From: Psammoneis japonica
Lineage: Eukaryota
Assembly (NCBI GenBank): GCA_008632985.1
Contig: QPGO01000055.1
Coordinates: 287,100 to 351,099 of the forward strand
Length of the DNA stretch: 64,000 nt
Reading direction: 5' to 3'
Shown: piece by piece, positions 11,454 through 31,680 of the stretch
How positions within the stretch are numbered: position 1 is the first letter of the stretch
How the letters are laid out: every line of letters starts with the position of its first letter
Notes under the pieces: generated by a model
Told to the model about the DNA's origin: nothing
What the model saw: the letters and a program-made list of their open reading frames with translations, nothing else
Database searches by the model: none
Made by a program: the position numbers and the translations under genes

Positions 11454-11635
11454 TGAATGAGATAGGCACATGTGCTTTATGACCAAGTGTGCCCTCTCTG
11501 ATGTGTGCATGTCAACTGGCGCATTGGATGTTCAGGAAGCCGTCAGAAATCAGCTCCGATCAGTGATTGTGCTGATCGGGTCTCTTCTCGGTTCTCCCAC
11601 AACTTTTGTCAAGTCATCTCAAGCTAGATCTTGCA
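11454..11635 (+). repeat. Gypsy 5' LTR
   Basis: Ungapped match to 16941-17122 with 25 differences, all transitions. Confidence 0.95.
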
Positions 11636-11948
11636 CTGCAATTGCAGTCGTTGTTGCGGCTTGTTTGCTGCATTGTCAATTTTGTGACAACGCGAAGAGT
11701 GTTGTCGAGAAGAGAGAAAATTTGTTTGCGAGCTTGTGCAGAAAAATTCATTCGAAGTCGATCAGAACCGCAGCACAATTGTGCTCGTGAAATTGGCGAT
11801 TCGGATCAGCATTTGTTTGAACTCAAATCTCGCATTGCTGCTCTTGAATTCGTCATTGTTTGGTTGTTGATTGTTCTCGTTGTGTGGATCAATTGGGAAC
11901 GTTTTGTTTCATTCATCTTGTGGATTGTTGATTGTTTGATCGCTGAAA

Positions 11949-14900
11949 TTGTTCATCGCCATGCATCAAGAAGCCTTGGAGAAAGCGTGCATTGAACATA
12001 AAACCAAACTCGTGGATTCTGAGCTGCAGGAAGTGAAGCTCACTCAAACCTTCGATGATGGTGCCAAACTTTCAAAAATGTGTCCTGTTTTCACAGGAGA
12101 GCATGGGATTGAATCATCATTGCACGTGGAGGATGGGTTCCGGAAGGTGGCAAGACAGCCAGATTGTGATGCCGGAACAGAGTCATTTGATGCTTTCGAG
12201 GATTGTCTCCAAGGAACTGCGGAGGCAAAATGGCAGAATGTCACCACGGGCATTCCACAGAGTCAACGGACGGCAGCTCGATTTGATCAGGCTATCTCAT
12301 CCTGCTGTCTGCACTGCGTGAAACCGACAGCTCACGACACAATGAAGATGTGCTTGCCCACTTGCAATGAGCCTTGCTCAGCGGAATCTGAAACTCACAT
12401 TGATCGCATGGAGATGTTGTTTCGTCACACTGACCGTTTGCCTGGTGCCGTTCCTGCACTCACAGAGCAGGAGCAGAAAAACATCATCTTTTGTGCCTTC
12501 CCTTTGACCTGGCAGCAGCCCCACATTTGTGCAGGCAAGAACCTTGTCACGGATTCTATGGTTGATGTCCAAGCCCACATGAGTGATGAGAAAGTGTTTG
12601 CCGACGGTCAAGACAACAAGAAACGCAAGTCCAGCAATGGCAACGGAGGAAACTCCAGTGACAAAAAGGGCAACCATGACAAGAAGGATGGCAAGGGCCA
12701 ACCGAAGGCAGGTGATCCATGTCCGGTCCCGTGGCACCATGGAAGGCATGCATTGGGCCAATGTTGTGACAATCCGAACAACCCCAACTTTCGTGGGCCT
12801 CAAAACCGTGGCGGTCGAGGAGGAGGCTGTGGCGGTGGAGGTCGAGGCGGAGGCCGTTTCCAAGGAGGCTGTGGTCAAGGCTGTGGAGGCAGTGGATGCT
12901 TTGGTGGTCATGGTGACCAGAACCAAGGAGGTTGTGGCACCTGTTGCAACAACAACAACAACAATGGAAATCAAAACAACAATGGCAACCAAGGTGGTGG
13001 TCAACATCATTGCAATGAAAACAACAACCGTGGAGGCCAAGGACAGGCCGACGGACATGCTGCTCAAGCAGACAATGTGAACAATGACAACCAGGCTCGA
13101 GAAGCTCCTTGTGGTGATGTGCGCCATTTTGACATGATCGGACGAGGCCCTCCAAGATGCGGAGGTGTGGTGAGGTTTCAGCCGGACGGGCAGTTTCCTC
13201 GGCAGTTCTGAGAAGAAGGAGCTGAATGCTCTGGAGCTGAATGCTCCCAATTGCCTGTGAGAGAAGCATTTGTTGAAGAAAATGATTGTGCTCCACCTGA
13301 ATGAAATGACGAATGTTTTGCTTTTGATTGTTTTGAAAATCCTGACGAATTGTCACCCATTGAATTTGAAAATGCTGCAGAAAATTGCATGAATGAAGAG
13401 GGGGATGTGTTTGATCAAGATGCATTTGAATGTGACACTCCTCTCCCCAAAATGAGTTCGCAAGTCTCACGTGCCGCATTGGTCCCATCTGCACCACTTG
13501 TTGCAAAATCGATCCAATGGCATGAGTCGAATCGTGTGATGCGTGTTTTGTTTGATTCGGGTGGTTCTCACACTGTGATTTCATCCCAAGTTTCACCTCG
13601 AGGAGCTGCACCATCTGTTGATGAACATGGAGTCAGAGCTTTCCAAACCGTGGCTGGTCCTTTCCAATCGGGTCGTTGGGTGGCCTTGAGCGATGTCGTG
13701 TTGCCGGAATTTGACAAAACTGGGAGGATTGACGGCTGTGTGGCTCACGCACTCGATGCTCTGTGTGCGCACGACATCATTTTGGGTCGAGACTTCTTGG
13801 ACAAGATTGGTCTCAACCTGAACTACGATGCAAGGACACTGCGATGGCCAGACCGTGTGATCCCAATGAAGGAACCTCGTCATTGGTCCAAGTCTTACAA
13901 CTGGCATGTGGCTCTAGATCGAATGGATGAATTTGATGAAGATCATGAAGACGAGTCGGACCATGGATGCGATGATGGACATGACAACTGCATGCTCGAC
14001 GCCAAGTGTGAAGCAACGGATCCAGCGGAAGTGGTTCGGAATTTAGATCATCTCACGGAAGAGCAAAAGAAGAAGCCACTGGCGGCATTGGAGAAATGTT
14101 CAACCTTGTTTGATGGAACTTTGGGGCACTGTCCTCATGAAAAGGCACACCTCGAAGTGGATGAAAATGCTGTTCCACATCACTCAAAACCGTTTCCTGT
14201 TGCTCGAGTCAATGAAGAAGCGTTCAAAAAGGAATTGAAGCATTTGGTGAATCTCAGCGCACTTCGACCATGTGGACCTACGGAATGGGCAGCCGGCACC
14301 TTCATTGCTCCGAAAAAGGACGGCCGAGTGTGATGGGCATCCGATTTTCGGGAGCTCAACAAAGTCATCAAGCGGAAGGTGCATCCTTTGCCAGTTGTTC
14401 AAGATGTGCTACAACGGAGAGCGGGCCACAAGTTCTTCACGAAATTGGATCTCACTGTGTTCTACTGCAATTTGGAATTGGACGATGAAAGCAAGGAGCT
14501 CGCTACGATTGCAACTCCGTGCGGAAAGTTCCAGTGTTGTCACATGGCTGTGGGATTGAAGCCAGCTCCAGACATTGCTCAGTCCATTGTTGAAAAGATC
14601 CTGCATGGTTTGGATGTTGAAACTTACATTGATGACATTGGCGCATTTGACGCTGACTTTGATTGCCATCTCTCTCGCCTTGACAAGGTGCCACATCGTC
14701 TCGAGGAGAATGGTTTGAAAGTCAACCCATTGAAGTGCGAGTGGTGTGTCCAAGAAACTGATTTCCTGGGGCGTTGGCTTGCTCCAACTGGAATCAAACC
14801 GTGGAAAAAGAGGGTCAAGGCGATCCTGCGAATGCAACCTCCACGGGATGCCACTCAGCTCCGGTCGTTTCTCAGTGCAGCAACCCATTGTCGCAACATG

Positions 14901-16832
14901 TGGCCTCGCCGTTCTCACCCACTTGCACCTCTGACTGAATTGACAGGCAAGAGTCAGTTCCAATGGACAGAATCATGTCAGAAAGCATTCAAGGAGATGA
15001 AGGCAGTGATTGCGGCGGAAGCTTTGATGGCCTGTCCTAACCACAACCTGCCATTCCATGTCCACACCGATGCATCAGACTGCCAGATGGGCACCGCCAT
15101 CATTCAAGATGGCAAACCTGTGGCGCATTGGTCTAAGAAGCTCTCGGCAGCTCAACGCAACCACTCAACAATGGAAAAAGAACTCCTAGCCGTCGTCATG
15201 TGCTTCAAGGAATTTCGCTCCATGTTGCTCAGTGCTGATGTTGCTGTTCACACTGATCACAAAAATCTCACCTTTTGCACTTTGAATGCGCAGCGCGTCC
15301 TTCGTTGGCGACTGTTCCTTGAAGATTTCGCGCCTGCCTTTAAGCATGTCGAAGGCAAGGACAACATGCTCGCCGATTGTTTTTCTTGACTCCCACGCAT
15401 GGATCCGCCTTCAGAGGGGAAGAGCCTTGGGCCAAGTGGCAGCAAACGCAAAGGAAAAATTGTTCATTTTGAAAAGTTGGATTCCAAGGAACTGAGCAAA
15501 GCTGAGGAAGAGGAAGATTTGGAGTTGGGCGCTTGCAGGTTCAAGTGTTGCCGTGCTCCGGTTGATCCTTCTGATGAGTCTCACGCCGCCTTTTCCTCTC
15601 TGCTTGATGAGCCTGAATTGTTTGAATGCTTTTTGAATTACCCAACGCTGGATGAAATGCCGAATCCTGCTGAGATGCTGAGGACACAACAGTTCCAGTT
15701 CGAAGATCTCCAACTGAATCAGCAAAGACAACAAAATCCGCAGCAGTTCGTGGTCAAGATTGTGAATCATCGTCCCTTGATTTGTTGTCGTTTGCATCTG
15801 AATGATCCGCCTGGAGCCTGGAAAATTTGCACTCCTGCTGCATTGTTGCTGGGTGCCATTGCATGGCACCATCGTGCATTGGGCCATTGTGGAGTCGTGC
15901 GATTGCATGAAAGTGTTCGGACTCACATGCATCATCCTGCATTGCGTCGACGTTGTAATGAATTTGTTTGCGATGTGTGTCAATGATTTAAACAACTGGG
16001 TCCTGGACATGGAGAATTACCTCAATGTCAAGCACCTTTGGCTCCGTGGACAGAAGCAGTGGTTGATCTCATTGGACCGTGGAAAACACCGATTCAAGAC
16101 CAAGAGATTGAATTCAGCGCTCTCACTTGTGTTGACACTGTCACTGGATTGACTGAACTCGTGCGCATTGATGACAAAACTTCTCAGCATGTGACTGACA
16201 AGTTTCGCAATCTTTGGTTGGCTCGCCACCCCAGACCAAATGGATGCATCCATGACAATGGCAGAGAACTCATTGGTTGGGAATTCCAGATGCCACCAAA
16301 TCAAGCAGGTGTTGCTGATGCGCCGACGACATCTCGAAATCCTGCAGCCAACTCCATTTGTGAACGAATGCACCAGACGGCAGCTGACATCTCATGCACT
16401 GTGGTTGTCGCCAACCCACCTTTAAATGTTCAACAGGCCAAGCAGATTGTGGACGATGCCCTTGCTGCAGCCTCTCATGCTTTGCGATGCTCCCACTCAA
16501 GGTCTGTGGGTGTTTCAAGTGGAGCTCTGGTGTTTCAACGTGATGTGATTTTGGACTTGCCAGTTGTCTCCAACCTTGCTGCGACACAAGCCAACCGACA
16601 AGTGTTGATCGACGAGAATCTGCGACGACAGAATGCGCAGCACCATTCCTGCGATTGTCCAGTTGGTCAAGATGCATTGACCAAGTCGGTGGATCCTTCA
16701 AAGTTGGAAGAACGAGCCTGTGGTCCATTTCGAATTGCACAAGTCCACGCCAACGGGACTGTCTCGGCACTGCGAGCACCACACGTCATTGAGCAAATTG
16801 ACATTCGCCGCGTGGTGCCGCATCAGAGTTGA
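11949..16832 (+). pseudogene. Gypsy gag-pol in a single reading frame, interrupted only by TGA stops
   Basis: ORFs starting 11949, 13350, 14379, 15399 and 16038 share one frame; LFDSGGS (protease), YIDD (RT), TDAS/EKELL/TDHKNL (RNase H), HHCC and DLIGPW..HDNG..ICERMH (integrase). Confidence 0.93.
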
Positions 16833-16940
16833 GGGTTTCTTCCCAACGTCTGGGTTCCCTTCTCCGTGCGCATTGGGGTTTGAATTTTGGTCGAGTGGCT
16901 CCAATGGTGCACGTGTTCCTTGCACCATGGAGGGGAAGAG

Positions 16941-17122
16941 TGAATGAGACAGGCACACGCACTTTATGACCAAGTGTGCCCTCTCTGATGTGCGCACATT
17001 GGCCAACGTGTCAGATGTTCAGGAAGCCATTAGAAGTCAGTTCCAATCAGCGATTGCGCTGATCGGGTCTCTTCTCGGTTCTCCCACAACTTTTGTCAAG
17101 TCATCTCAAGCCAGATCTTGCA
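16941..17122 (+). repeat. Gypsy 3' LTR
   Basis: Follows PPT, ends CA, followed by TSD AGAGG. Confidence 0.95.
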
Positions 17123-17672
17123 AGAGGTGCTTTGGCACAAACAGCCCCTGTTTCATGGCATCCTGCCCGCGCTGTTCGTTCTTGCCAAGGAACAACAGAA
17201 CAAGTGGGCTTCCCAATGTCTTCGGCAATGTCTCTTGATGCTCCAAGTCAGCAGCAAGTGCGAGCAGAAAAGAAGATGATGCATGGATCCGTTTTAGAGG
17301 ACTGATGTCAGGCTCGAATCATTGCTGCCGAAAGACATTTCAGCATGCAGACAGGTGCAGTCACCAAAAAATCAGTGACCGCTCCACGCTGGCACTGCTC
17401 TGGGAAGTGGCAGTTGTTCTCTTCGCCTTGTGGGCCGAAAGTGACTCACAAAATCTCAGTTTGCTGCAGTGCTCTGAGTTCTGAGACACGCACAATGGGG
17501 TGCTTGTCTGCCGTTTTGCTGGGTGCGCTTCTCAGTGCTGCACTCAGTTCTGTCAATTCATCCTCTCTTCGAGGAATCATCCCATCCACCGCCAATGACA
17601 GGGTCCTTGCGGCGACAGATGAAGCTCACTTCCGATGCACTCTCGACTTGGTTGAAGAAGTGGAGATGGGAG

Positions 17673-18119
17673 CGCAGCATGCATGCAGACAAAAGGTCAT
17701 TTTTGTCATGCCCTTTGTGACATTTAAAGGCTGTGACACGTCGCCGTGACACATTGGCTCTCATTGGCAGCTGTGTGTTGCACTCCTCCCCATGTGTCAC
17801 GCGTCCATGCGGCTCTTTGCTAACGTGTGCTGACACTGCACGGTTTTGGCGGAACAGTGTGGGCATGCACGAAGGAACGTGCAGAACTGCACAGAGTTTC
17901 ACACGTTCGACAGTGATCAACGTTGCTGCAGACAACTCCCACTCAGGGTTTCGAACCCCTGGCCTCCTGCCCAATGGTTGCGATGAACCACTCCGCCATG
18001 AATTCACAGTGCAGCATGCATGCAGACAAAAGGTCATTTTTGTCACGCCCTTTGTGACATTTAAAGGCTGCAACACGTCGCCGTGACACATTGACTCTTG
18101 TTGGCAGCTGCATGTTGCA
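17673..18119 (-). mobile_element. TRIM (miniature non-coding LTR retroelement), copy 1
   Basis: 110-bp terminal repeats 17673-17782 and 18010-18119, PPT GGGGAGGAG on minus, 4-bp TSD GGAG; empty site visible in the paralogue at ~29766. Confidence 0.92.
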
Positions 18120-18977
18120 GGAGGCCCGCATGACAATGACAACGGGCCATCAGAGGAAACAGTGACATGCGTCAAAACTTCAACGGTTGCACACATGGAC
18201 AAAATTGCCGAGATGTTTGTCAACGAGATGGAAGGTTGCACACCAACTGGTGGGGAACATTGGGCAGATTCAGCGATGTATGCCCAAGGTGACGAGGAAA
18301 TCAAAACGACCATCAAGACAGACATTTTCGCCAAGCCAAAGGTCTTCATTGGAGGGGTTTTAAGTGAAAGAAGAAACATCGACCCAAATCAGCACCCCAC
18401 TTTAGGAGGCCATCGTGCTCGGAAGCTGTGGATGACTGCAGCCGGCAATGAAACCAAACAAGAGGCAGGTCACGCTGAAGCGCACACAAGTGCAAAAAAA
18501 GACTTCTGCGTCAGCGCAAGAGAATGAGGGTTCCTTCATTTCTTGGGACATTCATCGCCAAATGCAGAACAAGAAGAAAAACAGGAAGAAGAAGAAAAGA
18601 AACAAGAGGCAAATGTTTTCTCTGAACAACAAGGTCCACTGTGAGCCATGTCTTTCAGACAACTTGGATGGGGGCAGGCTTCGGAGGCTTCATGCTCTGG
18701 CTGCCATCAGCTCTTTTGAGCCCAACTTTGAAGTCTGGATGAATGATCGCATTCGCGAAGAGATCATCAAGGACTGTGCGGAGATTGCAGTCACAAGCAC
18801 AACGTTCTCGAGGATTGAGAAAGGAAACGCGACACACACAAGCGGTCCATCTCCACCTCTTCCAGGTTGGGAACAGCTGCTGGCAGAGGATGGAGACGAT
18901 GGGCGTCCACCAGATCCAGGGGCAGACGGTGGCACTCATCCAGACGGTGGGCCTCCATCAGATCCAGGCGCGGATGG

Positions 18978-19172
18978 TGACAGAATGCTGAAGGTCGACA
19001 GCGACAGAGGTGTGAAAGACTCCCTGAAGCACCAGGACTGTGATGATGCGAGCACCAGCAGATGAGAAAAGTGAGAAGCAGATCTCAGAGAGATCTGCTC
19101 GTCTGTCCAAATGGTCTGGCCATCATCCGCATCCAGTCTGTCCATCCTGCGACAGGTGCAGACAGGCTGACA
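18978..19172 (-). repeat. Copia 3' LTR
   Basis: Ungapped match to 27761-27955; 15 differences, 14 of them transitions. Confidence 0.95.
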
Positions 19173-21070: not shown

Positions 21071-24000
21071 CCTGTCCAAGTCAATGCCAAATCGAGCCTT
21101 GTGCCAGGTCGCGCATGCCTCGTCTGTGGCAACACACACGGGATGTGATGGTCGTGGAGAGTGTGCACAGGCATCACAAACATCCCCGCCAAAGACAGGA
21201 CAGCTCAGGGTCGCAGCAAGGGCAAAAAACATGCGTTGGACAGGTTGCTCGACACAGGATGAGTGCGTCGAGCAGAGACAATGTAGTGTCGACGCAGCAC
21301 GGGGAGATCCATCGCAGCACTGTCGAGAGCGCCGTGTGCCATCATGCTTGAGGTCACATTGCCAATGCGGATGAAGCACGACAGCATCCTTGGGTCGTTC
21401 AATCGGTGCGCCAAACATCCCCAACTCATGGAACTGGTCAAGTTGTTTGAACTCACCTGCGTGCCATTTGGGCCACGTGTCCAACTTCTTGAGACGATGG
21501 CAGGTGAAAGTGCCCAAGGCTTGTTCCTCTGGAGTGACAGCGTGAGATGATGTGGCACAGATGTTGACTGTGCCATTGTCATGGTCGACAAAGAACGGCG
21601 GAGGGACATCGTCATCGTCCGTTTGGAGAAATCAATGTCGGGATGGCGGATGGCAGCAACAGCACGCACGTCGGCGTTGGTGATTTCCGGAACATGCTCA
21701 TCATCAGGATCAGGAGTCGGTGCACATGTGTTGTGTTCCATCAGAGCACGTTGTAGAGCTTGAGAGTCCAGGCGACGTTCCGGCACGAACTCAATTTCAA
21801 AATGAGTCTTGCCAGAATCATGGACTTGCTGAAAACGTTTGACAGCCTCCTCTGCCGTGAAGATGGGATGATCATTGATCGACAAGATGTGCACACCCTT
21901 GATCTTGTCACGGGTGGCCTTCAAAGAAGAGAAAAGACGTGCAGCAGGAGAACCACGCTCAATGTCAGAAACAAATGCTTGCCGACAGAGATCGTCCGTA
22001 GCCAAGGAAAGTCCAAATGTGGGATCAGCAAATGGTCCCTTCATCGCACGCTCAATGGTCTTGGCAAAAGGATTCCCATGAAAGTGAAATTCATCCATCA
22101 TGGTTTCTTCAGTCTCGGCAGGTAAAGCCTTGCCATCTTGAGTGCACCGCAAGTGAACCACATTCGGCGGAAGAGAGTCGTGGGGAAGATCATTCATGCC
22201 CTCATCACAGCGGATGTGCTTGGCAAGCTTGACACGCGATGTCTCAGCATCACACCCAAGAATGTTCTTGGCAGTGTCCAGAAGATGGCCTGAGAACATT
22301 CCCTTGCAAGAGACAGACCAAAATTTTGCTGGGCGGTGATTCGACGCATGCACCCACACTCGACAACCAAATGTGCGAAAGTTCTTGAAATCATCCTTCC
22401 GACCAGTGGCGAGAGCAATCGGAGCAGCAGGTTGTCCGCGGGATGGCATGGCATTGTTGATTTGAATGAAATGATGAAAAGCACAGGGCCAGAATTTTGT
22501 GGGCAAATCGGCACCGATTGGCATCGCCCGGATGGCGTCAGCAACAGACAAATGACTGCGCTCCACTGGGCCACTCTGATTTGAAGCATCTTTTCCCACA
22601 GGACGAATTGCATGATGAAAGTCATCCTCGAAGAGTTGCCGAACTTCTGGGTTTTGACACAATTCACCTCCTTGATCCATGAATGCATGTTCATCTGGAT
22701 GATTTGGCGAGTGCTCTTCCAGAAAGTGGCAAAGCCAATTCAAAGGGGTTGCCTTGGAGACACGAGTCGCACCATGGAGACGCTTCATTTTATGATCATA
22801 AACGGCAATCCAACAAGTCTCGCCATTCAATCCAACACAGTCCTTGGTGCGCTCCGAGCACTTGGAGCGTAGGCCAGAGAAGGAAAAATCAATCGTAAGG
22901 CCTTGGCAGGGTTGGGTGGCAGTGAGAGCAGTGTTCGGACCGGCAGGTTCCTTCGTCTGCTTTGCTCGCATGCATGTGGGACAAGTGTCGAGGGGAGAGG
23001 TTCCGTGAGCAAACTTGGGGACGCCGTCAACGTGTTTGTGGGCATTGCAAAGGCACTGATCACTCGGATGACCAAGTCGCTGATGCCACAAAAGACGTTC
23101 CATGTCGGCCTTGAGAGACTGGACAGGAATGTTCTTCTCAGCATGCTTCTCGAAAGGAATGTCTTGACAGACACGGGGGATCAACTTGCGTTCATCACGA
23201 AGAGCTTCATGTTGGTGGGCACGACAAGTCTCAATCACACACGCAGAGACCGCTTCACACTCATCGGCAAAAGAAGGATCACTGGTCTTGATGCGCTCGA
23301 CAGATGCATCCAGTTCGTCGTTAGATTCCGGGAGAATGAGAGGGTGAGCAAAACATTTTCCATTGATCAATTTCCCATGAACAACAACATCCTGACTCTT
23401 GCGTGATCGGTGTCATGCAACAAACTTGCAGGTGCCGAGATCATGGAACTTGAGAATGCAGTCGACATTGCAATCTGCGCGATGAGCACCATTTTGACGG
23501 AGCAGCAGTCGCTCATTGACCAACGTAGATTGGATCTGCGGGTGACAGCATGTACGAACCTCAACACATCCGGCAGAGTTCTCTGCAGGAATCCGCTGGC
23601 ATCCAAAACCAACTGGGACAGCTTGATGGCCAAGGGCGGGATTGACAGCAAGGGGACAGGGATGAGACGGAGTGAATTCTTGGTGTCAATGGAGGAGGTC
23701 ACGGTCGCCTGTGCACACAATGTCAGCACCTGTGTTGAGTTGAGCGCAACATTCATTCAGAGCAAAATTGACCCCATGGACAGAGCAAGCAGAGCGCAGT
23801 GGTTCTGGTTCAGGAGAGTGAGTCACTTGGCATGGATCAATCGGAGCAACTCAAACAGAATTGACTGCAGCAAAACCATCTTCAACGGCCATGTCATCGT
23901 AGGTGAGATCAATGTGTTCCTCAAAATCTGGTGTTTCTGAGGCTTCCCTCCCCTGCTCCAAAGGATCCGGAGCAGGAGCAGCATCGACGGTGTCTTCTTG

Positions 24001-24803
24001 AGGAGCAGGGTCATCGTCTGGCAATTTGCCAGTGTCGAATGATGCCTTCTTGGCAGTGGCAGGGGTGGTGTCCACATCAATCTGCGGAGAAAGAGGCATT
24101 TCAGCGGCAGATGACGAGACGGTTGGTCCCTCTTTCAAGGTCATCCCGCTGACATCAGTCGTGTCTCGGTGAGGAGAAAACGGGCAGCATCGGAGATCCG
24201 AAACAAGCTGCGACGGCCCGATTGAAAATCCGAGGGCAGAGCACCAGATTTGGTCAAATTTTCAGGGTTTTCATGATGAGGGGGGAGCAGGCCTTGGGGT
24301 CCTTGGAACTCAGAAGCACGCACAGCTGCCTCCCTCTTCAAGAATTGGCAAAAGCGGATGTGGAATCCCTTGATGTGCGGATTGTTCTTCAAGACTGGAC
24401 AGTCGTCAAACAAGTGTTCACCGGAGCAGACGAGACATGGTTTCTTGGAAGCTTCAGTCGGAGTGACACTCAGCTTGTAAACTGAAGCCGAGCAGACATG
24501 GTGAAGGAGTCGATCTTCATCCGTGGAGGGGAACTCGAGTCCATGTAACTCGTCGCAAAGAGTGTCGAAGGCATCCAAAGACAGAGATTCCGCACCAGTG
24601 TCTTCAACAGCAGAGTCATCGACTGGTTCAAGTGGAGGGATCTCGGGGACCTGGAGAGCATTGACATCAACAGTCATGCATCGTGTTTCCTCATTGGTGC
24701 GACTCCATTTACGGCAGGGATTGGATGGCGTCATACGGGTGTCAAGGGATGGACCATCTGGTTGGCGGAGGAAATCAGAGAGAGTCTCAACAATCTGTGC
24801 ATC

Positions 24804-25197
24804 GACGCGTTCCAGCCCCAGGTGGGAGCTCGCAGCACTGACGTGTGACAACAACAATTTTTGTCATCCGTCGCATGTTTCGTGCGCAGATTTCTACGTG
24901 TGACATTTAAAAAAAATTGTCCAGACTCGCTGTTTTGCGAAGCCCCAGATGTTTTGCATGACAAATTCACAGAAACAACAATGCGCCAGTTGCATTCTTC
25001 AATGTCTGAAGAATGTAACTGGCCAAGTAAAAATGATGTGCTTCAATCATGTGCGAGTTTGTGCATTCGCAAAATTGCCTCATTTTCTGTTGGCGATCAT
25101 TGACATTTAAATTGCCGCACAATTTTGCTGCGGAGCTCGCACGCAGAAGTCACAGGCCCAATGTCACACGGATTCCCACCTGCGTCTGGAACACGTC
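24804..25197. mobile_element. MITE with GAC...GTC TIRs and 4-bp TSD (family copy 1), in Copia gag
   Basis: GACGCGTTCCAG-n5-GGTGGGA ... TCCCACC-n5-CTGGAACACGTC; TSD CATC; removal restores KKHTDAQIVETL on minus. Confidence 0.9.
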
Positions 25198-25626
25198 CAT
25201 CAGTGTGCTTCTTCTGCACAGCTGGAGACTTCCGTTCATCTCTGGTGGCACAAGATAAGAACTTGGAGCACTCAGCTTCTTGACAAAGATGGCCATCTCT
25301 CGTGGATCACTCAACATAGAGTCCGCATCAAAGATGCAGGCACGCAGCTGCAGGGAATCATTGGAAATCATGTGGCAGTCCATCAATGATTGATTGCCTT
25401 GGGTGGGATGGGAACCAACCAGTCCTGCAGCATCATGGTCAAAAGCAGGGTGATTCTCGCAGATGATCTGCTTGAGAGCCTTGCATCCGTTGCCGCAGCA
25501 TGATGCAACAATCCGATGACACTTGCTGTTCTTGGGGAACATGTCCGACTTGGATGGGATCTTGTGGAGAGAGCTCTGGGCTTCCTTGCAGTGGACGTAC
25601 ATGTGCTGGAGCAAGTCGTCATCTTT

Positions 25627-26553
25627 GACGCGTTCCAGGTCTAGGTGGGACCTCGCACTGCTGAACTGTGACATCGATGGTTTTTTGAATCTCGTCGTAT
25701 GTCGCGCACGTAGAATTCTACGTGATTTTTTTATATTTTGTGTCATTTTACGGTACACTTATTGAGCGATCCGTCCAAAAACTTTTGACATTTTTTGTTA
25801 CAGCGCGATTCTATAATGTCTTAAGAATCGCGTAGGGCAGGTGCATTTGCAAAAACGTCGAGTGGTAAGAGGCATAATTGTACCACAAACTTGGCCGTTT
25901 ATTTGATGTTGAAGACACACACATACATTAACACGGGATCCACGGGTGCACCCGGGAATTGCGGGATGAAAGGGGAAAGGGGCAAATGGGAATGTTGGGA
26001 AAGTAAGGGGCCATTGTTGTGCCTCAAGGGTCCCTTTAGTGAGCCGAACACGCACATTTGCCATCTGACCATCATGGGTCCGTCTTATGGGGGGTGTCAA
26101 AATGTTGTGACGGGACGCGTCTTGAGGATTAATCGTTATATAATATATTTGGCTATGAAGGTTATATAAAGTTGAAAAACGTACGTGCGCGTTTTTTATG
26201 TGTGCCGTTTTCAGATTTATATAATATTAATGGTCAGATATATAATATATAAAATTATTTCTCGAGACCGCGTCTGCTCTCACAATTTAACGACCCCCGA
26301 AAGGACGGACCTACGAGGGTCAAATCAGCAATGAGCGTGTTTGGCTGACTAAAGGGTCCCTCAAGGTAAAATAATAGCATGTCACTTTTCCACCATTCAC
26401 ATTTGCCCCTTTCCCCTTTCATCCCGCATTTCGCAGATTCCCCTGGTGCATCCGCGGATCCCGTGTTAATTAAATTCTCGCACTGCGGAGCTCGCACGTA
26501 GAATTCTACGGGCCCAATGTCACACGGAGTCCCACCTGGGGCTGGAACACGTC
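25627..26553. mobile_element. Related GAC...GTC MITE (copy 2), TpA-intact, with a nested foldback element
   Basis: Same TIR pattern; TSD CTTT (25623-25626 / 26554-26557); removal restores EIGNGK-DDDLLQH. Confidence 0.9.
25932..26465. mobile_element. 534-bp foldback MITE flanked by TTAA (piggyBac-like, non-autonomous)
   Basis: TTAA|CACGGGATCC ... GGATCCCGTG|TTAA; imperfect inverted arms of ~250 bp around a ~25-nt loop near 26181-26205. Confidence 0.8.
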
Positions 26554-27760
26554 CTTTGCCGTTTCCAATCTCGAAACCTTTCTCACCACCGTGGTCCTTG
26601 GCAAAACACCACAATGGATGCATGTGGCACCCTGAGTCAAAGGCACGACGTTGGAAATTTTGGCACCATGCGCGTGTCCCAGGAGGAGAGTCATCATGAC
26701 ATGCAGGAGGTTCCCTGAACAACATTTTCTGGTCAGGAGTCGAGCTCATGATGAAAAGAGCACCATCGTCAAGGATGCACGATCGGATGCATCAATGTGG
26801 TGATGGAATCCATGGTCACAAGGGACGAGAGAACTCTGGAGAGCAACTTCGCCATCTTCTTTGCAGTCGCAGCGTTCACAAACATCTTTTGGCAGCATGT
26901 TTGGATTGAAGAGGTGTTTGGATGCAATGGAAGATGCAGCACTTCCGGGTGACTTGGCAGAAGCAGCAGAAGGCAGAGCGTGGCTCGACGCATGTGCACT
27001 GAGTGCGTTGACCAAGTCATTCACACTCGCCGCAGCAGATCCTGTGGTTTTCTGAGGAGGAGACGGAGGCTGCTTTTTCTGCTGGTGGGGTGCAAGAGAG
27101 AATTCGTTCCAACTGCGACAGCTCCACATCATGTCCGGATCAACACGCACATGTTGGGCAGATGTGGCAATGAACAGAGATTGTTTGCCATTCTGAAGAT
27201 TCGTCTTGATCATCTTTGATGAGATCGGAGTCGTCAGGCGGACTGGACGAGGCCTTTGAGGGTCAAGAAGTCTGAGCGGGGCTTGATCCACAATCGTCTT
27301 GATTGATTCTATGTCCGTGGGATCAGCTGTGTAAGGTGGAAACGCTTCGTGGATGAAACAATCACAAAGTGTGTCCGCAAAATCGTTCTTGGGTTGCGCA
27401 TGCTCTGGATCGTCAAAAAATCGATCGAGATCAGTTGTGGAGTCTGCACAAACCGCACTCAGGCACTGATGTAGATGTGGCATCGTTGTGTGTGCCTCAA
27501 ATTTGCAGCAGATCTCTGCAATTGACGTGGGAGCGGCTTTTGCAAGGTCGGGAGACGCCATGGTTTTAGTGGGTGGAGCCATTTTTGGTCATGCACGTGT
27601 GGAAATCTGGCATGTTTCTACGACCGTGAAAAATGCCGGGAAAGCGAGATAAAAAGTTGTCTGATCAGACGATGAGGCTCGCTTGATCGGCTCACAAAAC
27701 AAATGAATCGAAGTGGAAAGCTTGGCGCAGAGGTCTGTGGCACAGCGTGTGGCCACAACC

Positions 27761-27955
27761 TGACAGAATGCTGAAGGTCGACCGTGACAGAGGTGTGAAA
27801 GACTCCCTGAAGCACCAGGACTGTGACAACACGAGTGCCAGCAGATGAGAAAAGTGAGAAGCAGATCTCAGAGAGATCTGCTCATCTGTCCAAATGGTCC
27901 AGCCATCATCTGCACCCAGTCTGTCCATCCTGCGACAGGTGCAGATGGGCTGACA
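27761..27955 (-). repeat. Copia 5' LTR
   Basis: PBS-like GGTTGTGGCCACAC immediately internal; TSD GACGG external. Confidence 0.95.
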
Positions 27956-29059
27956 GACGGTGGCACTGCAGGTCAAGGACCTGGATCTCCCAATGTCCCT
28001 CAAGATGATGCCCCTCCCCCACTCCGCCTGCGACCGCATGGGGCCCATCACGGTTAAAAGGGCAGAGATGTTGCAAAGTCCTCCTGACCCTCTTTGTTTG
28101 AAATGGTTCATTGCATCCATGCAGGCCCTTTGCAGGTTTAACCGAGCGATGGGGGTGACTTTGTAGCTTCCATTTGCTGTCTGTGTGTGAGTGTCTGTCC
28201 ACTCGAATGTAGACGGAGGCACCGCTTGCATGCATGATGGCACACATTGTCGAGGTTTCCTTCTCTGCAATGTGCTCATGCAAGCAATGAAGCCATTCAG
28301 AAATTTCACATTTAGAGACCAAACATTGATTGGCCAATGTCTTGCTTCATCAAGCCAACGGGGCTTTTGACTCAGCTCAGATGCCGTGCAACTGCCAAGT
28401 CACTTCTCCTGGGTGCAAATGATGCACCATCGACCTTCTCCATGCATGGTTGCTGTCCAGTTTGGCCATGAGACGAAGTGTCAGCGGGCCGGTGGAAATC
28501 ACAAATCTTTGACTTGCGGGGCCGCAGGGGGTGCAGAGTGCAGAGTGCCGACAACACCATGAGCAGCATCCCATGGGAAAACTTGCCGCGCCACTTTCAA
28601 GATTTTGCATGTCACCATGACGCAGCTCTGTCCCTCGCCGCGGCACGGCAACTGGTTGTTGACAAAGAACATGCTCGCGCTTGGCCTGACGCACCTTGCA
28701 CTCTCCACCGGGAACAGCTCTGCACTCTCTTGAAAGAAGATTTAGAAACACCAGCACACTCTGCACAGCTTCATTTTCTGCTAGAATTGCAAGGCGCAAG
28801 GCGCAGATGAGCCATCATGGCGGCAAAAACTTCAAAATGTGAATGCCAGCGAGACGCGAGAAAAAATGTGTTTTCAGTTTTCAGTCGTGCGTGCGTGTGT
28901 CATGTGGAGTTTTTGCAAAAATGATGTGTTTTCATTTAAATCTGTGTAAAGTAAATGCGTGTGTAACGGACACAACGGAAACATTTGTTTTACAACTCTG
29001 ATTCAGTGCAAATTTTTCGAAAATTTGGCCAGAATTTTGCCAACTTCATCGTTGTCGGA

Positions 29060-31680
29060 TGTGGCTGTTTGTGTTTTTCTCACGCAGCCGCTTTTCGGTG
29101 TTTGGTTCGTGTTCGTGAATTCGTGACGGCTGCCTTCTATTGGGAATGGCCGAATGCAACGAAATGAGCCCCGTTTTGTCTTTCTCCGACAGTCCAATTC
29201 AAAGATGACTTTGTTTTTTGGAAGAATCAATTTTGAGAGTGCGTCAAAATGTCTCGAGTTATGACCAATGACTTCAAGGCGAAGGGCCTATTTTCAATTT
29301 TTTTGTGATTGTGACTTGTGAAGTGCTCTTTTGTGCCTTGTCATTTCGACGAATGATTCCTCTGTGCCGCTTTGCAATGCCTTCGTTGTGTCTCTTGATG
29401 GATGATGAAACGGTAAATCCGACAGATGACCGATGTCAGGTCCACATTGAAAAATGCCAAAAGGCATTGTCGGCTGCTCATGACTCATGTCATCAAAAAA
29501 TCAGTGACCTCCAGGCCGAAGCTCAGTTGTTCTCTCCTTCGCCTTGCGGGCCGCTCCTGAAAGTGACTCACAAAATCTCAGTTTGCTGCGCATTCTGAGA
29601 CCAGCCATGAGGTTCTTGCTGGGCACGCTTCTCAGCACTGCACTTGGTGGAGTCAATTTGTCCTCTCTTCGAGGAATCCCATCCACCGCCAATGACAGGG
29701 ACCTTGCGGCAACAGATGAAGTTCATTTCCGATGCACTCTCGACCCAATTGAAGAAGTCGAAACAGGAGGCCCGTGTGACAATGACAACGGACCGTCAGA
29801 GGAAACAGTGACATGCACCGAGACTTCGATGGTTGCACACATGGACAAAATTGCCGAGATGTTCATCAACGAGATGGAAGGCTACACACCAACGGGTGGG
29901 GAACATTGGGTAGATTCAGTGATGCACGCACAAGGCAAAGAGGAAATCAAAACGACTCTCAAGACAGACATTTTCGCCAAGCTAAAGGTCTTCATTGGAG
30001 GGGTCTCAAGCAAAAGAAGAAACATCGACCTAAATCAGCACCCCATTTTAGGAGGCCATCGCGCTCGGAAGCTGCAAACAACTGCAGCCGGCGATGAAAC
30101 CGAACAAGAGGCAGGTTACGACGAAGCGGATAAAAGTGTGAAAAAAATGACATCTGCGTTAGAACACGAGAATGAGGAGCCCTCTATTTCTGGGGACATT
30201 CATCGCCCAATGCAGAACAAGAAGAAAAACAGGAAGAAGAAGAAAAGGAAAAAGAGGCGAATGTTTTCTCTGAATGACAAGGTCCACTGTGAGCTGTGCC
30301 TTTCAGATAACATGGATGGAGGCAGGCTTCGGAGGCTTCGTGCTCTGGCAGCCATCAGCTCTTTTGAGCCCAACTTTGAAGTCTGGATGAATGATCGCAT
30401 TTGCGAAGAGATCGTCAAGGACTGTGCGGAGATTGCAATCACAAGCACAACGTTCTCGAGGATTGAGAACGGAAGCGTGACACACACAAGCGGTCCGTCT
30501 CCACCTCTTCCAGGATGGGAAGAGCCACTGGCAGAGGATGGAGACGATGGGCTTCCACGAGATCCAGGCGGGGACGGCGGCACTCATCCAGACGATGGGC
30601 CTCCATCAGATCTGGGCGTGGACGGTGGCACTCCAGCACTAGATGCAGGAGAAGAAGGAACTGCAGGTCAAGGACCTGGATCTCCCGATGTCCCTCAAGA
30701 TGATGCCCCTCCCACTCCGCCTGCGACCGCATCGGGCCCATCACGGTCGAAAGGGCAGAGACGTTGCAAGTCCTGCTGACCCTTTTCCTTTGAAATGGTT
30801 CATTGCATCCATGCAGGCCCTTTGTTAGTTTAACGGAGCGGTGAGGGTGTTTAGTGAAATTTTAGCTTCTATTTGCCATCTGTGTGTGAGTGTCTCTCCA
30901 TTCGAATGTAGACGGAGGCACCGCTTGCATGCATGACAGCACACATTGTCGAGGTTCCTTCTCTGCAATCTGCTCATGCAAGTCCTCCATGCATGGTTGT
31001 TATCCACATTAATGATGAGATCAAGTGTCAACAGGGTGGTGCATCATTTGGCATGATGGAGTGCACACAGAATGGCTTCAAGGAAATTCTAAATCTTCGA
31101 CCGGCGGCATCGTAAGGGGGTGTAGAATGCAGAATGCCGACAACACCACGAGCAGCATCCCACGGTAAAGCTTGTCGTGCCACTTTCGAGATTTTGCATG
31201 TCACCACGACGCAGCTCTGTCCCTCGCCGCAGCACGGCAACGCCAGCGATCGTTGCCTGTTGCAGAATCTTTTTCTTTCACACAAGATGTCGACGAAGAA
31301 CATGCTCGCGCTCGGCCTAACGCACTTCGCACTCTCCACCAGGCACAGCTCTACACTCTCTTGAAAGAAGATTTAGAAACACCAGCACACTCTGCACGGC
31401 TTCTTTTTCTGCTAGAATTGCAAAGCGCAAGACGCAATGAGCCATGGCATGAGAGTGTGTTTTCAGTTTTCAGTCGTGCGCATTAGCTTGTGCAGTTTTT
31501 ATCAAAATAATATGTTTTCATACAAATCCTTATAAAGTAAATTTGTTTATAACGGACACAACGGAAATATGTGTTATACAACTCTTCATAAATTCTAACA
31601 AGAATATCTGATTCAGTGCCAAATTTTTCGAAAATTTGGCCAGAATTTTGCCTTCAAAACCAAACTTCGTCGTCGTCCGT
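29060..31680 (+). repeat. Copy B of a ~2.6-2.9 kb tandem duplication (copy A = 11050-29055 minus TE insertions)
   Basis: 29060-29350 matches 11050-11395; both units end in AAATTTTTCGAAAATTTGGCCAGAATTTTGCC. Confidence 0.85.
29607..30779 (+). CDS. Putative secreted protein of unknown function, partly TpA-depleted (possibly decaying)
   Basis: MRFLLGTLLSTALGGVNLSSLRG signal-like start, Lys-rich tract, Gly/Asp/Pro-rich C-terminal repeats; no TE domain recognised. Confidence 0.5.
   Translation: MRFLLGTLLSTALGGVNLSSLRGIPSTANDRDLAATDEVHFRCTLDPIEEVETGGPCDNDNGPSEETVTCTETSMVAHMDKIAEMFINEMEGYTPTGGEHWVDSVMHAQGKEEIKTTLKTDIFAKLKVFIGGVSSKRRNIDLNQHPILGGHRARKLQTTAAGDETEQEAGYDEADKSVKKMTSALEHENEEPSISGDIHRPMQNKKKNRKKKKRKKRRMFSLNDKVHCELCLSDNMDGGRLRRLRALAAISSFEPNFEVWMNDRICEEIVKDCAEIAITSTTFSRIENGSVTHTSGPSPPLPGWEEPLAEDGDDGLPRDPGGDGGTHPDDGPPSDLGVDGGTPALDAGEEGTAGQGPGSPDVPQDDAPPTPPATASGPSRSKGQRRCKSC

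What the first reader, a model, noticed from the sequence alone, without database searches (positions are those of the whole stretch)
11454..31480. Repeat-directed TpA->TpG/CpA hypermutation: candidate 'reverse-RIP' genome defence
SEEN: no TA at all in 12560-13823, ~12 in 38345-47380 and none in either Copia LTR, versus ~21 per 480 bp in SLY1. Tyr (TAY) has nearly vanished from TE proteins: 0 in 420-aa gag, 2 in 336-aa RT/RH, 0 in 264-aa integrase, 1 in 400-aa Copia RT/RH. Positions normally Tyr read Cys or His (HTDASDC, VAHWS, QRNHST, RSTTGC, LLHAHV, DIGCAV), and some Leu appear to read Pro. That is TA->TG or TA->CA, i.e. A->G on either strand. ESTABLISHED: fungal RIP (RID-dependent) makes C->T at CpA and creates TpA; 5mCpG decay gives TG/CA but cannot remove Tyr codons. 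INFERENCE: a distinct A:T->G:C mutator targets repeats. Candidates are polymerase-eta-type error-prone patch repair (WA->WG) in methylated DNA, or a TadA/ADAT-like DNA adenine deaminase. I am not aware of a description of this in diatoms but could not search.
Basis: partly seen in the sequence, partly recalled or inferred. Interest (0 to 1): 0.95.

Follow-up and report, generated by a model that had tools for sequence, protein, structure and literature searches.

The report
TpA-erasing hypermutation of diatom transposons
In this diatom genome the transposable elements have had nearly every TA step rewritten to TG or CA after they inserted, a mutational footprint so far reported only once, in an unrelated alga, and one that points to a still unidentified genome-defence activity.

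Summary
In the transposon blocks TpA is 8- to 15-fold rarer than in the neighbouring genes (for example 12 TA in 9,036 bp). TpG and CpA rise by the matching amount, and Tyr is almost absent from the element proteins.

Three tests show a TA->TG/CA mutation process in the chromosome, not native composition or an artefact:
- Where relatives conserve Tyr, the window reads His or Cys: 12 of 16 columns in gypsy RT/RNase H, 5 of 6 in copia.
- All 79 environmental relatives of the gypsy element have ordinary TpA content.
- The two LTRs of one gypsy insertion, with TG..CA ends and an AGAGG target duplication, differ by 25 changes, all transitions. They include TG-versus-CA sites that need independent hits after integration.

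The process is strand-symmetric, spares AA, favours RTAY sites and never creates stop codons. Boundaries are sharp.

The same signature was seen arising de novo in Bigelowiella natans (2026 preprint). My searches found no report for diatoms. The enzyme and the targeting signal remain unknown. Polymerase eta is disfavoured, and "repeat-induced" targeting is unproven.

The parts
11454..17122 (+). Complete but degenerate Ty3/gypsy LTR retrotransposon. It has 26 TA in 5,669 bp where 362 are expected. Gag frame 11940-13208, protease/RT/RNase H 13305-15386, integrase 15390-16829.
   Evidence: Pfam finds RVT_1, RT_RNaseH and RT_RNaseH_2, with weak RVP, rve and Integrase_H2C2. tblastn of homologues maps to 13530-15674. 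TA count. About 35-45 copies at 90% identity or more in run X1.
11454..11635 (+). 5' LTR of the gypsy element (TG...CA), preceded by the target-site duplication AGAGG at 11449-11453.
   Evidence: alignment. 25 differences from the 3' LTR, all transitions, and the two are identical in purine/pyrimidine alphabet.
16941..17122 (+). 3' LTR of the gypsy element (TG...CA), followed by the target-site duplication AGAGG at 17123-17127.
   Evidence: Six TG-versus-CA double discordances and three TA-versus-CA sites against the 5' LTR.
19326..24036 (-). Internal region of a Ty1/copia element (gag, integrase, RT/RNase H). It has 20 TA in 4,711 bp where 265 are expected. It is interrupted at 20637-21066 by a 430-bp repeat that is an inverted copy of 17677-18119.
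   Evidence: Pfam gag_pre-integrs and SH3_retrovirus. tblastn of 8 copia homologues. Tyr->His/Cys at conserved columns. No LTR pair found.
17123..19325 (.). TA-depleted mosaic of repeat fragments. 17677-18119 matches 20637-21066 (inverted), 18118-18982 matches 29764-30630, and 18978-19172 matches 27761-27955.
   Evidence: Self-BLAST. These pairs supply 13, 10 and 5 TG/CA double discordances.
24801..25200 (.). MITE-like element, copy A, with terminal inverted repeats. It is TA-poor (5 TA) with CG kept (23).
   Evidence: Inverted repeat I5, a contig joint skipping 24808-25208, and the three-copy alignment.
25627..26553 (.). MITE-like element, copy B, with the same termini as copy A but TA-rich (22 TA once the nested insert is removed). 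It holds a nested 544-bp palindromic element at 25927-26470 flanked by TTAA. This is the only TA-normal island inside the depleted block.
   Evidence: Many X1 contigs skip about 25915-26470 and about 25601-26556. Depth is about 800-1000 times unique sequence in the 667-bp bins that contain it.
26554..31470 (.). TA-depleted block of further repeats, including a roughly 1-kb direct repeat (27949-29060 and 30644-31680). Depletion ends near 31470, about 200 bp inside the right-hand copy, which keeps TA where the left copy has TG or CA.
   Evidence: (TA 7 versus 24; 11 sites TG or CA versus TA).
38351..47500 (.). 9-kb block with the strongest depletion of both TpA (12 TA) and CpG (O/E about 0.1-0.3). 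It has no recognisable protein and contains MITE copy C at 46735-47115 (0 TA, 10 CG).
   Evidence: No Pfam hit, no homologue and no pol match.
6134..9250 (.). TA- and CpG-depleted block containing a 916-bp direct repeat (6134-7049 and 7812-8725, 98.7% identical, both almost TA-free). It was therefore duplicated after the TA loss.
   Evidence: The ends lack TG..CA, so the pair is not shown to be LTRs.
1..690 (.). Edge of another TA-depleted block that runs off the window (2 TA in 700 bp).
1047..3095 (+). SLY1/Sec1-family host gene, the TA-normal comparator (84 TA in 2,049 bp). It also identifies the organism as a diatom.
   Evidence: Pfam Sec1, E = 2e-113. Best hits are 62-66% identical to proteins named Nitzschia, Fragilaria, Ditylum and Staurosira. 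TA count.

Best explanation
The retrotransposons, MITE-like elements and an unclassified 9-kb repeat block in this diatom chromosome were hit, after they integrated, by a hypermutation process specific to the dinucleotide TpA. It turns TA into TG or CA, that is A:T->G:C on either strand.

Shown here:
- direction, with TA ancestral;
- dinucleotide specificity;
- equal use of both strands with no strand-coordinated runs;
- action after integration;
- confinement to mobile DNA with edges sharp to about 100 bp;
- a wider site preference (RTAY mutated most, YTAR surviving);
- a rate tens to about 100 times the background and several times the CpG decay in the same DNA.

Inferred:
- The chemistry is enzymatic base editing of nuclear DNA at TpA, most simply deamination of adenine to hypoxanthine, which is copied as G. 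I give this about 0.4.
- Targeting follows the silenced chromatin state of the elements rather than copy number.
- It is the same kind of process as the TpA hypermutation seen arising in Bigelowiella natans.

Consequences follow directly from the genetic code. Tyr codons become His or Cys. ATA, CTA, GTA and TTA codons and T|A codon junctions change. TAA and TAG stops are lost or become TGA. No new in-frame stop is ever created. Elements are therefore disabled by missense changes and loss of TA-rich signals, not by nonsense as in RIP.
For: Direction.
- In 55 gypsy RT/RNase H homologues, 16 columns are at least 60% Tyr. There the window reads His 7, Cys 5, Tyr 2, Phe 1, Trp 1, always as CAY or TGY codons.
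- Eight of 10 codon-position-1 A->G replacements follow a T.
- In the copia integrase region, 6 conserved Tyr columns read His 3, Cys 2, Phe 1.
- In copia RT, homologue Tyr residues align to window Cys 5-9 and His 2-4.
- All 79 metagenome relatives of the gypsy element have TA O/E of 0.45-1.0.
- Of the 40 variant rows shown (467 more were not shown), 8 are sites where other genomic copies carry TA and the window has TG or CA.

After integration. The gypsy LTRs have TG..CA ends and an AGAGG target duplication. They were therefore identical at insertion (established LTR-retrotransposon mechanism). They now differ at 25 of 183 positions, all transitions, including 6 TG/CA doubles and 3 TA/CA sites.

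Not CpG decay. Pooled over 7 repeat pairs there are 42 TG/CA doubles, against 4.0 expected from the CpG decay rate observed in the same pairs.

Specificity. AA O/E is 1.16-1.25 against 1.12 in host DNA. A/G differences run at 3.2% after A, 2.7% after G and 51% after a variable pyrimidine.

Strand symmetry. His versus Cys is 10:7 (P = 0.63). The runs test gives z = 0.86.

Context. Residual TA sites are RTAY in 4 of 115 cases, against 29% in the relatives (P = 1.5e-12). They are YTAR in 46 of 115, against 19% (P = 3e-7).

Boundaries. Read support.

Precedent. De novo TpA->TpG/CpA mutations at about 6e-7 per site per generation in integrated viral DNA of B. natans, and TpA-poor CDS enriched for RT and DDE domains (preprint 10.64898/2026.01.13.699255; Results and Discussion read).
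Against: - No de novo event is observed here. Everything is a footprint.
- The enzyme is unidentified and no genome was available to look for one.
- One TA-rich MITE-like copy sits untouched in the middle of a depleted block, in depth bins of about 1000 copies. Targeting is therefore not simply 'all repeats' or 'all DNA in the domain'. It could equally mean the process is episodic and that copy is young.
- A 916-bp repeat pair is 98.7% identical and already TA-free, so some TA-free DNA was copied later. In those copies the footprint is inherited rather than acquired in place.
- In the short LTR pair alone, a naive two-class model explains only part of the 6 doubles. The pooled test carries the argument.
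- Run X1 may be the assembly's own data and its library type is not on record.
- The top-80 cut and the search patterns favour unmutated relatives.
- Sequence alone cannot tell A->G at TpA from T->C at TpA on the other strand.
Confidence: 0.8

Rival explanations
1. The same post-integration, TpA-specific process, but the modified base is the thymine and not the adenine. An example would be oxidation to a 5-hydroxymethyluracil-type base by a TET/JBP-like dioxygenase, followed by miscoding or error-prone repair that gives T->C. Because TA is its own reverse complement, this yields the same TG and CA products.
For: Strand symmetry and the symmetric RTAY preference fit either base equally well. 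From memory, not from any call: dinoflagellate DNA carries 5-hydroxymethyluracil preferentially at TpA and TpC.
Against: 5-hydroxymethyluracil pairs with A and is, from memory, only weakly mutagenic. No such modification is on record for diatoms in anything I read. The B. natans authors favour adenine deamination, although they did not test it either.
Confidence: 0.1
2. Error-prone repair synthesis in methylated or heterochromatic DNA, as in the polymerase-eta WA->WG spectrum of somatic hypermutation, or poor repair of a TpA-specific lesion.
For: The same blocks also show CpG decay: CG O/E of 0.26-0.70 and 6 of 18 conserved copia Arg changed to Gln, Cys or His. They were therefore probably methylated, silenced DNA in which patch repair could act.
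Against: The WA motif includes AA, but AA is not depleted (1.16-1.25 against 1.12). A/G differences after A (3.2%) equal those after G (2.7%). A passive repair deficit is hard to reconcile with 90-98% loss of TA, edges sharp to about 100 bp and an untouched TA-rich insertion inside the block.
Confidence: 0.07
3. RNA-level A-to-I editing of element transcripts (ADAR- or ADAT-like), or editing of the cDNA during reverse transcription, fixed when the edited copy integrates.
For: A U before the edited A is the known preference of ADAR and TadA/ADAT enzymes (stated). One repeat pair is nearly identical and already TA-free, so mutated templates can be copied.
Against: Editing of the genomic RNA would give only sense-strand A->G (Tyr->Cys), and editing of minus-strand cDNA only the reverse. 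Both occur about equally: His 10 and Cys 7, and sense-strand TG O/E 1.61-1.71 against CA 1.47-1.49. The two LTRs of one insertion carry different products at the same sites, which is impossible before integration. MITE-like DNA elements, which have no RNA stage, show the same loss.
Confidence: 0.03
4. The element families are natively TA-poor (selected avoidance of UpA or TpA), or the pattern is a sequencing or assembly artefact at modified bases.
For: UpA avoidance is common in RNA viruses (general knowledge). The library type of the only run found is not on record.
Against: All 79 relatives have ordinary TA content. Conserved Tyr columns are replaced by His or Cys, apart from two survivors in CTAC context that include the RT YIDD Tyr, and the frames are broken. 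Sister copies in the same genome keep TA at sites where the window has TG or CA. Contigs built from reads at about 58x match TA-poor DNA with 0 differences. Tyr-poor homologues with the same Tyr->Cys/His pattern occur in other public data sets.
Confidence: 0.03

Closest known systems
TpA hypermutation of integrated viral DNA in the chlorarachniophyte Bigelowiella natans (Mettrop et al., bioRxiv 10.64898/2026.01.13.699255; abstract, Results and Discussion read)
   Same: Only TpA is hit, and the products are TpG and CpA on either strand. The process is confined to integrated foreign or mobile DNA while the rest of the nucleus mutates normally. TpA-poor, CpA/TpG-rich clusters and CDS there are enriched for reverse-transcriptase and DDE domains. 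The window's blocks (rho TA 0.04-0.08, rho TG/CA 1.53-1.80) pass that paper's cluster thresholds (rho TpA at most 0.43, rho CpA+TpG at least 1.52).
   Different: The host belongs to a different supergroup lineage (diatom, Stramenopila, against Rhizaria). Here it is a saturated footprint (90-98% of TA gone) in LTR retrotransposons and MITE-like elements, not a de novo rate in giant-virus and virophage insertions that are still TA-rich. This report adds the LTR-pair proof of post-integration action, the RTAY preference and the absence of strand-coordinated runs. The enzyme is unknown in both. Whether the two are homologous systems is untested.
Repeat-induced point mutation (RIP) of Neurospora and other ascomycetes (RID/DIM-2 dependent; general knowledge, and abstracts listed)
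   Same: Post-integration, dinucleotide-specific transitions on both strands that riddle transposable elements to saturation and leave neighbouring genes alone.
   Different: The direction is opposite. RIP makes C->T at CpA and creates TpA; here TpA is destroyed. RIP creates TAA and TAG stops and AT-rich DNA. This process can create no in-frame stop and leaves G+C near 50%. RIP needs duplicated DNA and a premeiotic stage. Here copy number does not predict depletion and the timing is unknown.
APOBEC3 editing of retroelements and ADAR hyperediting of repeat RNA in animals (PMC4866542, listing and abstract only; preferences as summarised)
   Same: Deaminase-type transitions concentrated in retroelements. 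ADAR prefers a U before the edited A.
   Different: Those act on cDNA or RNA before integration and are strand-asymmetric. Here both strands are used equally and the two LTRs of one insertion differ. APOBEC gives G->A and not A->G.
Deamination decay of methylated CpG in silenced transposons
   Same: It also yields TG and CA, and it is present here as a second, slower process (CG O/E 0.26-0.70; copia Arg->Gln/Cys/His at 6 of 18 columns).
   Different: It cannot remove TA or Tyr codons. It accounts for only about 4 of the 42 TG/CA double discordances.

Membership tests
TpA->TpG/CpA hypermutation of integrated foreign DNA (B. natans type) | Only A:T pairs within TpA are changed, and they change to G:C. 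| tested here: met
   TA O/E is 0.04-0.08, while AA and AC are unchanged, AG is unchanged in the first block group (only slightly up in the second), and GA is unchanged in the first block group but lower in the second (0.91 against 1.15). Conserved Tyr reads CAY or TGY. A/G differences after A or G stay at background.
TpA->TpG/CpA hypermutation of integrated foreign DNA (B. natans type) | Both products (TpG and CpA) occur, so either strand is used. | tested here: met
   His:Cys is 10:7. Sense-strand TG O/E is 1.61-1.71 against CA 1.47-1.49. There are 42 TG/CA discordances between copies.
TpA->TpG/CpA hypermutation of integrated foreign DNA (B. natans type) | Confined to integrated mobile or foreign DNA, with host genes spared. 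| tested here: met
   Block edges are sharp to about 100 bp, for example at the LTR start 11454. Host genes have TA O/E 0.62.
TpA->TpG/CpA hypermutation of integrated foreign DNA (B. natans type) | Mutations arise de novo in the chromosome at a rate orders of magnitude above background. | tested here: inconclusive
   Post-integration origin is shown by the LTR pair. The rate is roughly 30-100 times background by my estimate from the counts.
Fungal RIP | C->T at CpA (G->A at TpG), raising TpA and lowering CpA/TpG. | tested here: not met
   The opposite holds: TpA falls to 0.04-0.08 and CpA/TpG rise to 1.5-1.8.
Fungal RIP | Triggered by sequence duplication. | tested here: inconclusive
   All depleted DNA is repetitive at some level. 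However TA count does not follow copy number (Spearman 0.26, P = 0.19). Segments of about 2-3 copies are depleted, while the TA-rich MITE copy B lies in depth bins of about 800-1000 copies; its own copy number was not resolved.
Retroelement editing before integration (ADAR, ADAT or APOBEC type) | Strand-asymmetric changes that are identical in both LTRs of an insertion. | tested here: not met
   The LTRs differ at 25 sites, including 6 TG/CA doubles. Both strands are used.
Polymerase-eta WA->WG spectrum | A mutated after either A or T. | tested here: not met
   AA is not depleted. A/G differences run at 3.2% after A against 2.7% after G.
TadA/ADAT2-like DNA adenine deaminase as the agent | A nuclear CDA-fold deaminase with activity on DNA at 5'-TA. 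| not testable with these tools
   No genome is held for this window. The only sequence-level hint is the preference for T before and a pyrimidine after the target.

The most novel reading that the evidence does not exclude
Diatoms and chlorarachniophytes share an enzyme-driven genome-defence system, possibly widespread in the SAR clade. It edits nuclear DNA at TpA, preferring RTAY, in silenced transposons and integrated viruses, hit by hit and on either strand. It disables them by missense changes and by erasing TA-rich signals, and it never makes a stop codon. In that sense it is a mirror image of fungal RIP, carried out by a DNA adenine deaminase that has not yet been identified.
Probability: 0.35. 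Interest if true: 0.9.

Novelty: new member of a known kind. Interest (0 to 1): 0.78.

Why it matters
Targeted hypermutation as a genome defence is textbook only for fungi (RIP, C->T) and vertebrates (APOBEC, C->U). An A:T->G:C counterpart aimed at one dinucleotide has been reported once, in 2026, for a single rhizarian alga.

Finding its saturated footprint in the retrotransposons of a diatom matters for several reasons:
- It shows the process is not a peculiarity of one species or of viral insertions.
- It gives a clean proof that the process acts on chromosomal DNA after integration.
- It adds site-preference data (RTAY) that constrain the enzyme.
- It moves the search for the enzyme into a group where gene knock-outs and methylome and small-RNA maps exist (from general knowledge).

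There is also a practical side. TA-free DNA has no TAA or TAG codons. It is therefore full of long spurious ORFs on both strands, and its proteins escape domain searches. Both effects distort gene prediction and repeat annotation in such genomes.

Tried and rejected
- Whole genome: none is held. There was therefore no genome-wide scan and no search for deaminases or Y-family polymerases.
Their organisms are unknown.
- The 38-47 kb block stays unclassified. Pfam gave nothing on 20 and then 52 of its ORFs, there was no homologue of its 355-aa ORF, and 13 gypsy and copia proteins gave no tblastn hit there.
- Copia LTRs: blastn with word size 7 and an alignment in purine/pyrimidine alphabet found no pair.
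- The 6134-7049 / 7812-8725 repeat lacks TG..CA ends, so I did not call it an LTR pair.
- RNA evidence: no RNA holder was listed by the look-up of sequencing runs. Runs X2 and X3 hold next to none of the stretch.
- Earlier findings of this scan: five look-ups gave nothing bearing on this window.
- Selection keeping the YIDD Tyr: I considered it and dropped it. Both surviving Tyr codons sit in CTAC, the commonest surviving context.
- GC-biased gene conversion: rejected. AT and AA steps are unchanged in the 11-30 kb blocks, and G+C rises only from 47% to 50-51%.
- Literature: seven searches and term look-ups in two diatom TE papers found no description of TpA loss in diatom elements. Subscription-only papers are not covered. 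The preprint's supplements are closed and were not seen.

Full report
**1. The observation**

The window is nuclear DNA of a diatom. Its SLY1/Sec1 protein (1047-3095) finds its best matches, 62-66% identical, in proteins named Nitzschia, Fragilaria, Ditylum, Staurosira and other diatoms. No identical protein is in the database.

A 1-kb sliding count shows TpA almost absent from several blocks: 1-700, 6151-9250, about 11500-24700, 26500-31470 and 38351-47500. In the genes between them TpA has its usual observed/expected ratio of 0.5-0.9.

- 0 TA in 12560-13823;
- 12 TA in 38345-47380, where 575 are expected from base composition;
- 84 TA in the 2,049-bp SLY1 ORF.

At the TA density of the host DNA, 11454-24700 should hold 579 TA and holds 56 (Poisson P = 4e-172).

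Strand-symmetrised ratios:

| DNA | TA | TG/CA | CG |
|---|---|---|---|
| 11-30 kb blocks | 0.08 | 1.53 | 0.70 |
| 38-47 kb, 6-9 kb and 1-0.7 kb blocks | 0.04 | 1.80 | 0.26 |
| host DNA | 0.62 | 1.14 | 0.94 |

In both groups the TG+CA gain equals the TA loss plus the CG loss. Every other dinucleotide stays close to the host value; the only other shifts over 0.15 are in the second block group, at AT, GC and GA/TC. AA is 1.16-1.25 against 1.12.

Tyr is 0-2 per element frame, with Cys and His raised.

**2. What the blocks are**

- 11454-17122 is a Ty3/gypsy element. Pfam finds RT and RNase H, with weak protease and integrase matches. Its LTRs are 182 bp (11454-11635 and 16941-17122), start TG and end CA, and are flanked on both sides by AGAGG.
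- 19326-24036, on the minus strand, is the interior of a Ty1/copia element. It is interrupted at 20637-21066 by a 430-bp repeat. I found no LTR pair for it.
- The rest of 17-31 kb is a mosaic of repeat fragments and MITE-like elements.
- The 38-47 kb block has no recognisable protein.
- In the contigs of public run X1, unique DNA has depth about 58. The gypsy element is at about 35-45 times that, the copia element at about 35-80 times, and the MITE-bearing bins at about 350-1070 times.

**3. Direction of change**

Against 55 homologues with ordinary Tyr content, the gypsy RT/RNase H has 16 columns that are at least 60% Tyr. The window reads His 7 (CAY), Cys 5 (TGY), Tyr 2, Phe 1 and Trp 1.

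Ile->Val, Met->Val and Thr->Ala replacements are A->G at the first codon position, and 8 of 10 follow a codon ending in T. Val->Ala reads GCA and Leu->Pro reads CCA.

In the copia integrase region, 6 conserved Tyr columns read His 3, Cys 2 and Phe 1. Only 6 of 18 conserved Arg have gone to Gln, Cys or His, the signature of CpG decay. In copia RT, homologue Tyr residues align to window Cys (5-9) and His (2-4).

The homologues have median Tyr of 4.1% (gypsy set) and 3.1% (copia set), against 0.6% and 0.3% in the window.

All 79 environmental relatives of the gypsy RT fetched with their DNA have TA O/E of 0.45-1.0. That search keeps the 80 best-scoring loci, so it favours unmutated relatives. It shows that the lineage is natively TA-normal, not that mutated copies are rare.

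Of the 40 best-supported differences between the window and other genomic copies, 8 are sites where other copies have TA and the window has TG or CA. Another 11 are sites where others have CG and the window has TG or CA (467 further rows were not shown).

**4. When it happened**

The two LTRs of one insertion are identical when it integrates (established mechanism). Here they differ at 25 of 183 positions. All 25 are transitions, and the two LTRs are identical in purine/pyrimidine alphabet. Twenty-one of the 25 lie in YR dinucleotides: six TG-versus-CA doubles, three TA-versus-CA sites and six CG-versus-TG/CA sites.

A TG/CA double needs an ancestral TA or CG hit independently in each copy. 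Pooled over seven repeat pairs, 84 CG are shared and 52 are discordant. This gives a per-copy CpG decay of 0.24 and predicts 4.0 doubles. There are 42.

So most doubles come from TA, and the hits fell separately on each chromosomal copy.

From the same counts I estimate a rate per base at TpA of roughly 30-100 times the background of these copies, and about 5 times their CpG decay. This is my arithmetic on the counts and is rough.

Not every copy acquired the footprint in place. The 916-bp pair 6134-7049 / 7812-8725 is 98.7% identical and already TA-free, so it was duplicated afterwards.

**5. Properties that constrain the mechanism**

- **Dinucleotide-specific.** A/G differences between copies run at 3.2% after A, 2.7% after G, 6.4% after an unchanged T, 8.4% after C (CpG decay) and 51% after a pyrimidine that itself varies.
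- **Strand-symmetric.** His:Cys is 10:7 (P = 0.63). On the sense strands TG O/E is 1.61-1.71 and CA O/E is 1.47-1.49.
- **Not processive on one strand.** The order of TG and CA along copies gives 26 runs against 23.7 expected (z = 0.86).
- **Wider context matters.** Of the 115 surviving TA, 4 are in RTAY (29% in the 79 relatives, P = 1.5e-12) and 46 are in YTAR (19%, P = 3e-7). None is ATAT. The two surviving RT Tyr codons, including the YIDD Tyr, are both CTAC, the commonest surviving context, so no selection need be invoked.
- **Sharp edges.** There are 7 TA in 11400-11499 and 0 in 11500-11599, with similar steps near 700, 6200 and 38400. On the right the depletion ends near 31470, about 200 bp inside a repeat copy. 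I cannot explain this.
- **Copy number does not predict depletion** (Spearman 0.26, P = 0.19). Segments at about 2-3 copies are depleted. MITE-like copy B (25627-26553), which lies in bins at about 800-1000 copies, keeps 22 TA. Its nested TTAA-flanked 544-bp palindromic element (25927-26470) is also TA-rich.
- **A three-stage series.** Three MITE copies line up as stages: B has TA and CG intact, A (24801-25200) has 5 TA and 23 CG, and C (46735-47115) has 0 TA and 10 CG. TpA loss therefore runs ahead of CpG decay.
- **No stop codons.** By the genetic code, TA->TG/CA cannot create an in-frame stop and removes TAA and TAG. The blocks are accordingly full of long overlapping ORFs on both strands.

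**6. Artefact check**

Contigs built from the reads of run X1 match TA-poor stretches without a single difference: 17093-17466, 18188-18590, 18792-19032 and 28208-28752. Together these hold 7 TA in 1,563 bp. Differences among family copies are 441 transitions to 62 transversions.

The run's library type is not on record, and it may be the assembly's own data. The long error-free contigs suggest accurate reads, but that is an inference.

Tyr-poor relatives occur in other public data: 5 of the 120 listed gypsy homologues and 10 of the 150 copia representatives. The five gypsy ones show Cys or His at 7 to 10 of the 17 conserved Tyr columns. Their organisms could not be looked up.

**7. Explanation**

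The best reading is a TpA-specific A:T->G:C hypermutation acting on integrated mobile DNA in the nucleus.

The chemistry is inferred. Adenine deamination to hypoxanthine at 5'-TA on either strand is the simplest route and is the one proposed for B. natans. A thymine-modification route cannot be told apart by sequence.

The rivals fare as follows:
- Polymerase-eta type WA mutagenesis fails the AA test.
- Editing of RNA or cDNA fails the LTR and strand tests.
- Native TA avoidance fails the outgroup tests.
- GC-biased gene conversion fails on specificity.

Targeting probably follows silencing, since the same blocks carry CpG decay. Nothing here shows homology-based repeat recognition.

**8. Comparison and novelty**

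The only close precedent I found is the 2026 preprint on Bigelowiella natans. I read its abstract, Results and Discussion; its supplements were not seen. In mutation-accumulation lines, 230 of the 231 mutations in two integrated viral regions were A->G or T->C, all of these at TpA, at about 6e-7 per site per generation. TpA-poor CDS there were enriched for RT and DDE domains.

The window's blocks exceed that paper's thresholds. The word 'diatom' does not occur in it.

Seven literature searches and term look-ups in two diatom TE papers found no account of this in diatoms.

I therefore file it as a new member of a very recently described kind. It is in a different eukaryotic lineage and affects retrotransposons at saturation. 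It adds new evidence on timing and site preference.

Relative to RIP it works alike in outline (post-integration, dinucleotide-specific, aimed at elements). It fails RIP's defining feature, because the direction is reversed.

Noticed in passing
window 25927-26470: A 544-bp palindromic MITE-like element with 30-bp terminal inverted repeats, flanked by TTAA on both sides (a piggyBac-type target site, from memory). Its core is very TA-rich. It is nested in another MITE-like element inside a TA-depleted block. Many contigs of run X1 lack it.
   Followed up: partly
window 24801-25200, 25627-26553 and 46735-47115: Three copies of a MITE-like family with shared termini, lying in bins at about 350-1070 times unique depth. 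They stand at three stages: TA and CG intact; TA lost with CG kept; both lost. Copy B shares only the termini with A and C.
   Followed up: partly
window 31470-31680: The right edge of TA depletion lies about 200 bp inside a 1-kb repeat copy. The last part of that copy keeps 14 TA in 100 bp where its sister copy (28880-29000) has TG or CA. This is unexplained.
   Followed up: partly
window 38351-47500: A 9-kb block with both TpA and CpG almost gone. It has no Pfam domain, no homologue for its longest ORF and no retrotransposon pol match. Its origin (old transposon, viral insertion or other) is unknown.
   Followed up: partly
window 11500-30000 and 38351-47500: TA-free DNA has no TAA or TAG codons, so long ORFs overlap on both strands (for example 19350-20669 minus against 19902-21374 plus). 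This is a trap for gene prediction, and the mutated proteins largely escape Pfam.
   Followed up: yes
proteins P0133, P0169, P0192, P0193, P0239 (gypsy) and P0321, P0347, P0362, P0365 (copia): Public proteins 50-55% identical to the window's gypsy RT that are also Tyr-poor, with Cys or His at conserved Tyr columns. P0133 is odd: it has Cys 7 and Phe 5 but no His. The copia representatives listed have 0 Tyr. Source organisms could not be looked up.
   Followed up: partly
window 3186-5751, minus strand: Two adjacent frames with an ANF-receptor ligand-binding domain and a class-C 7TM domain (7tm_3). This is probably one intron-split GPCR-like gene next to SLY1.
   Followed up: no
window 51627-51792: An 83-bp unit repeated twice in tandem at 98% identity, just downstream of the ORF 50347-51651.
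   Followed up: no
window 6134-7049 and 7812-8725: A 916-bp direct repeat, 98.7% identical and nearly TA-free. Seven of its 12 differences are at CpG sites (CG versus TG or CA), so CpG decay continued after TpA was exhausted.
   Followed up: partly
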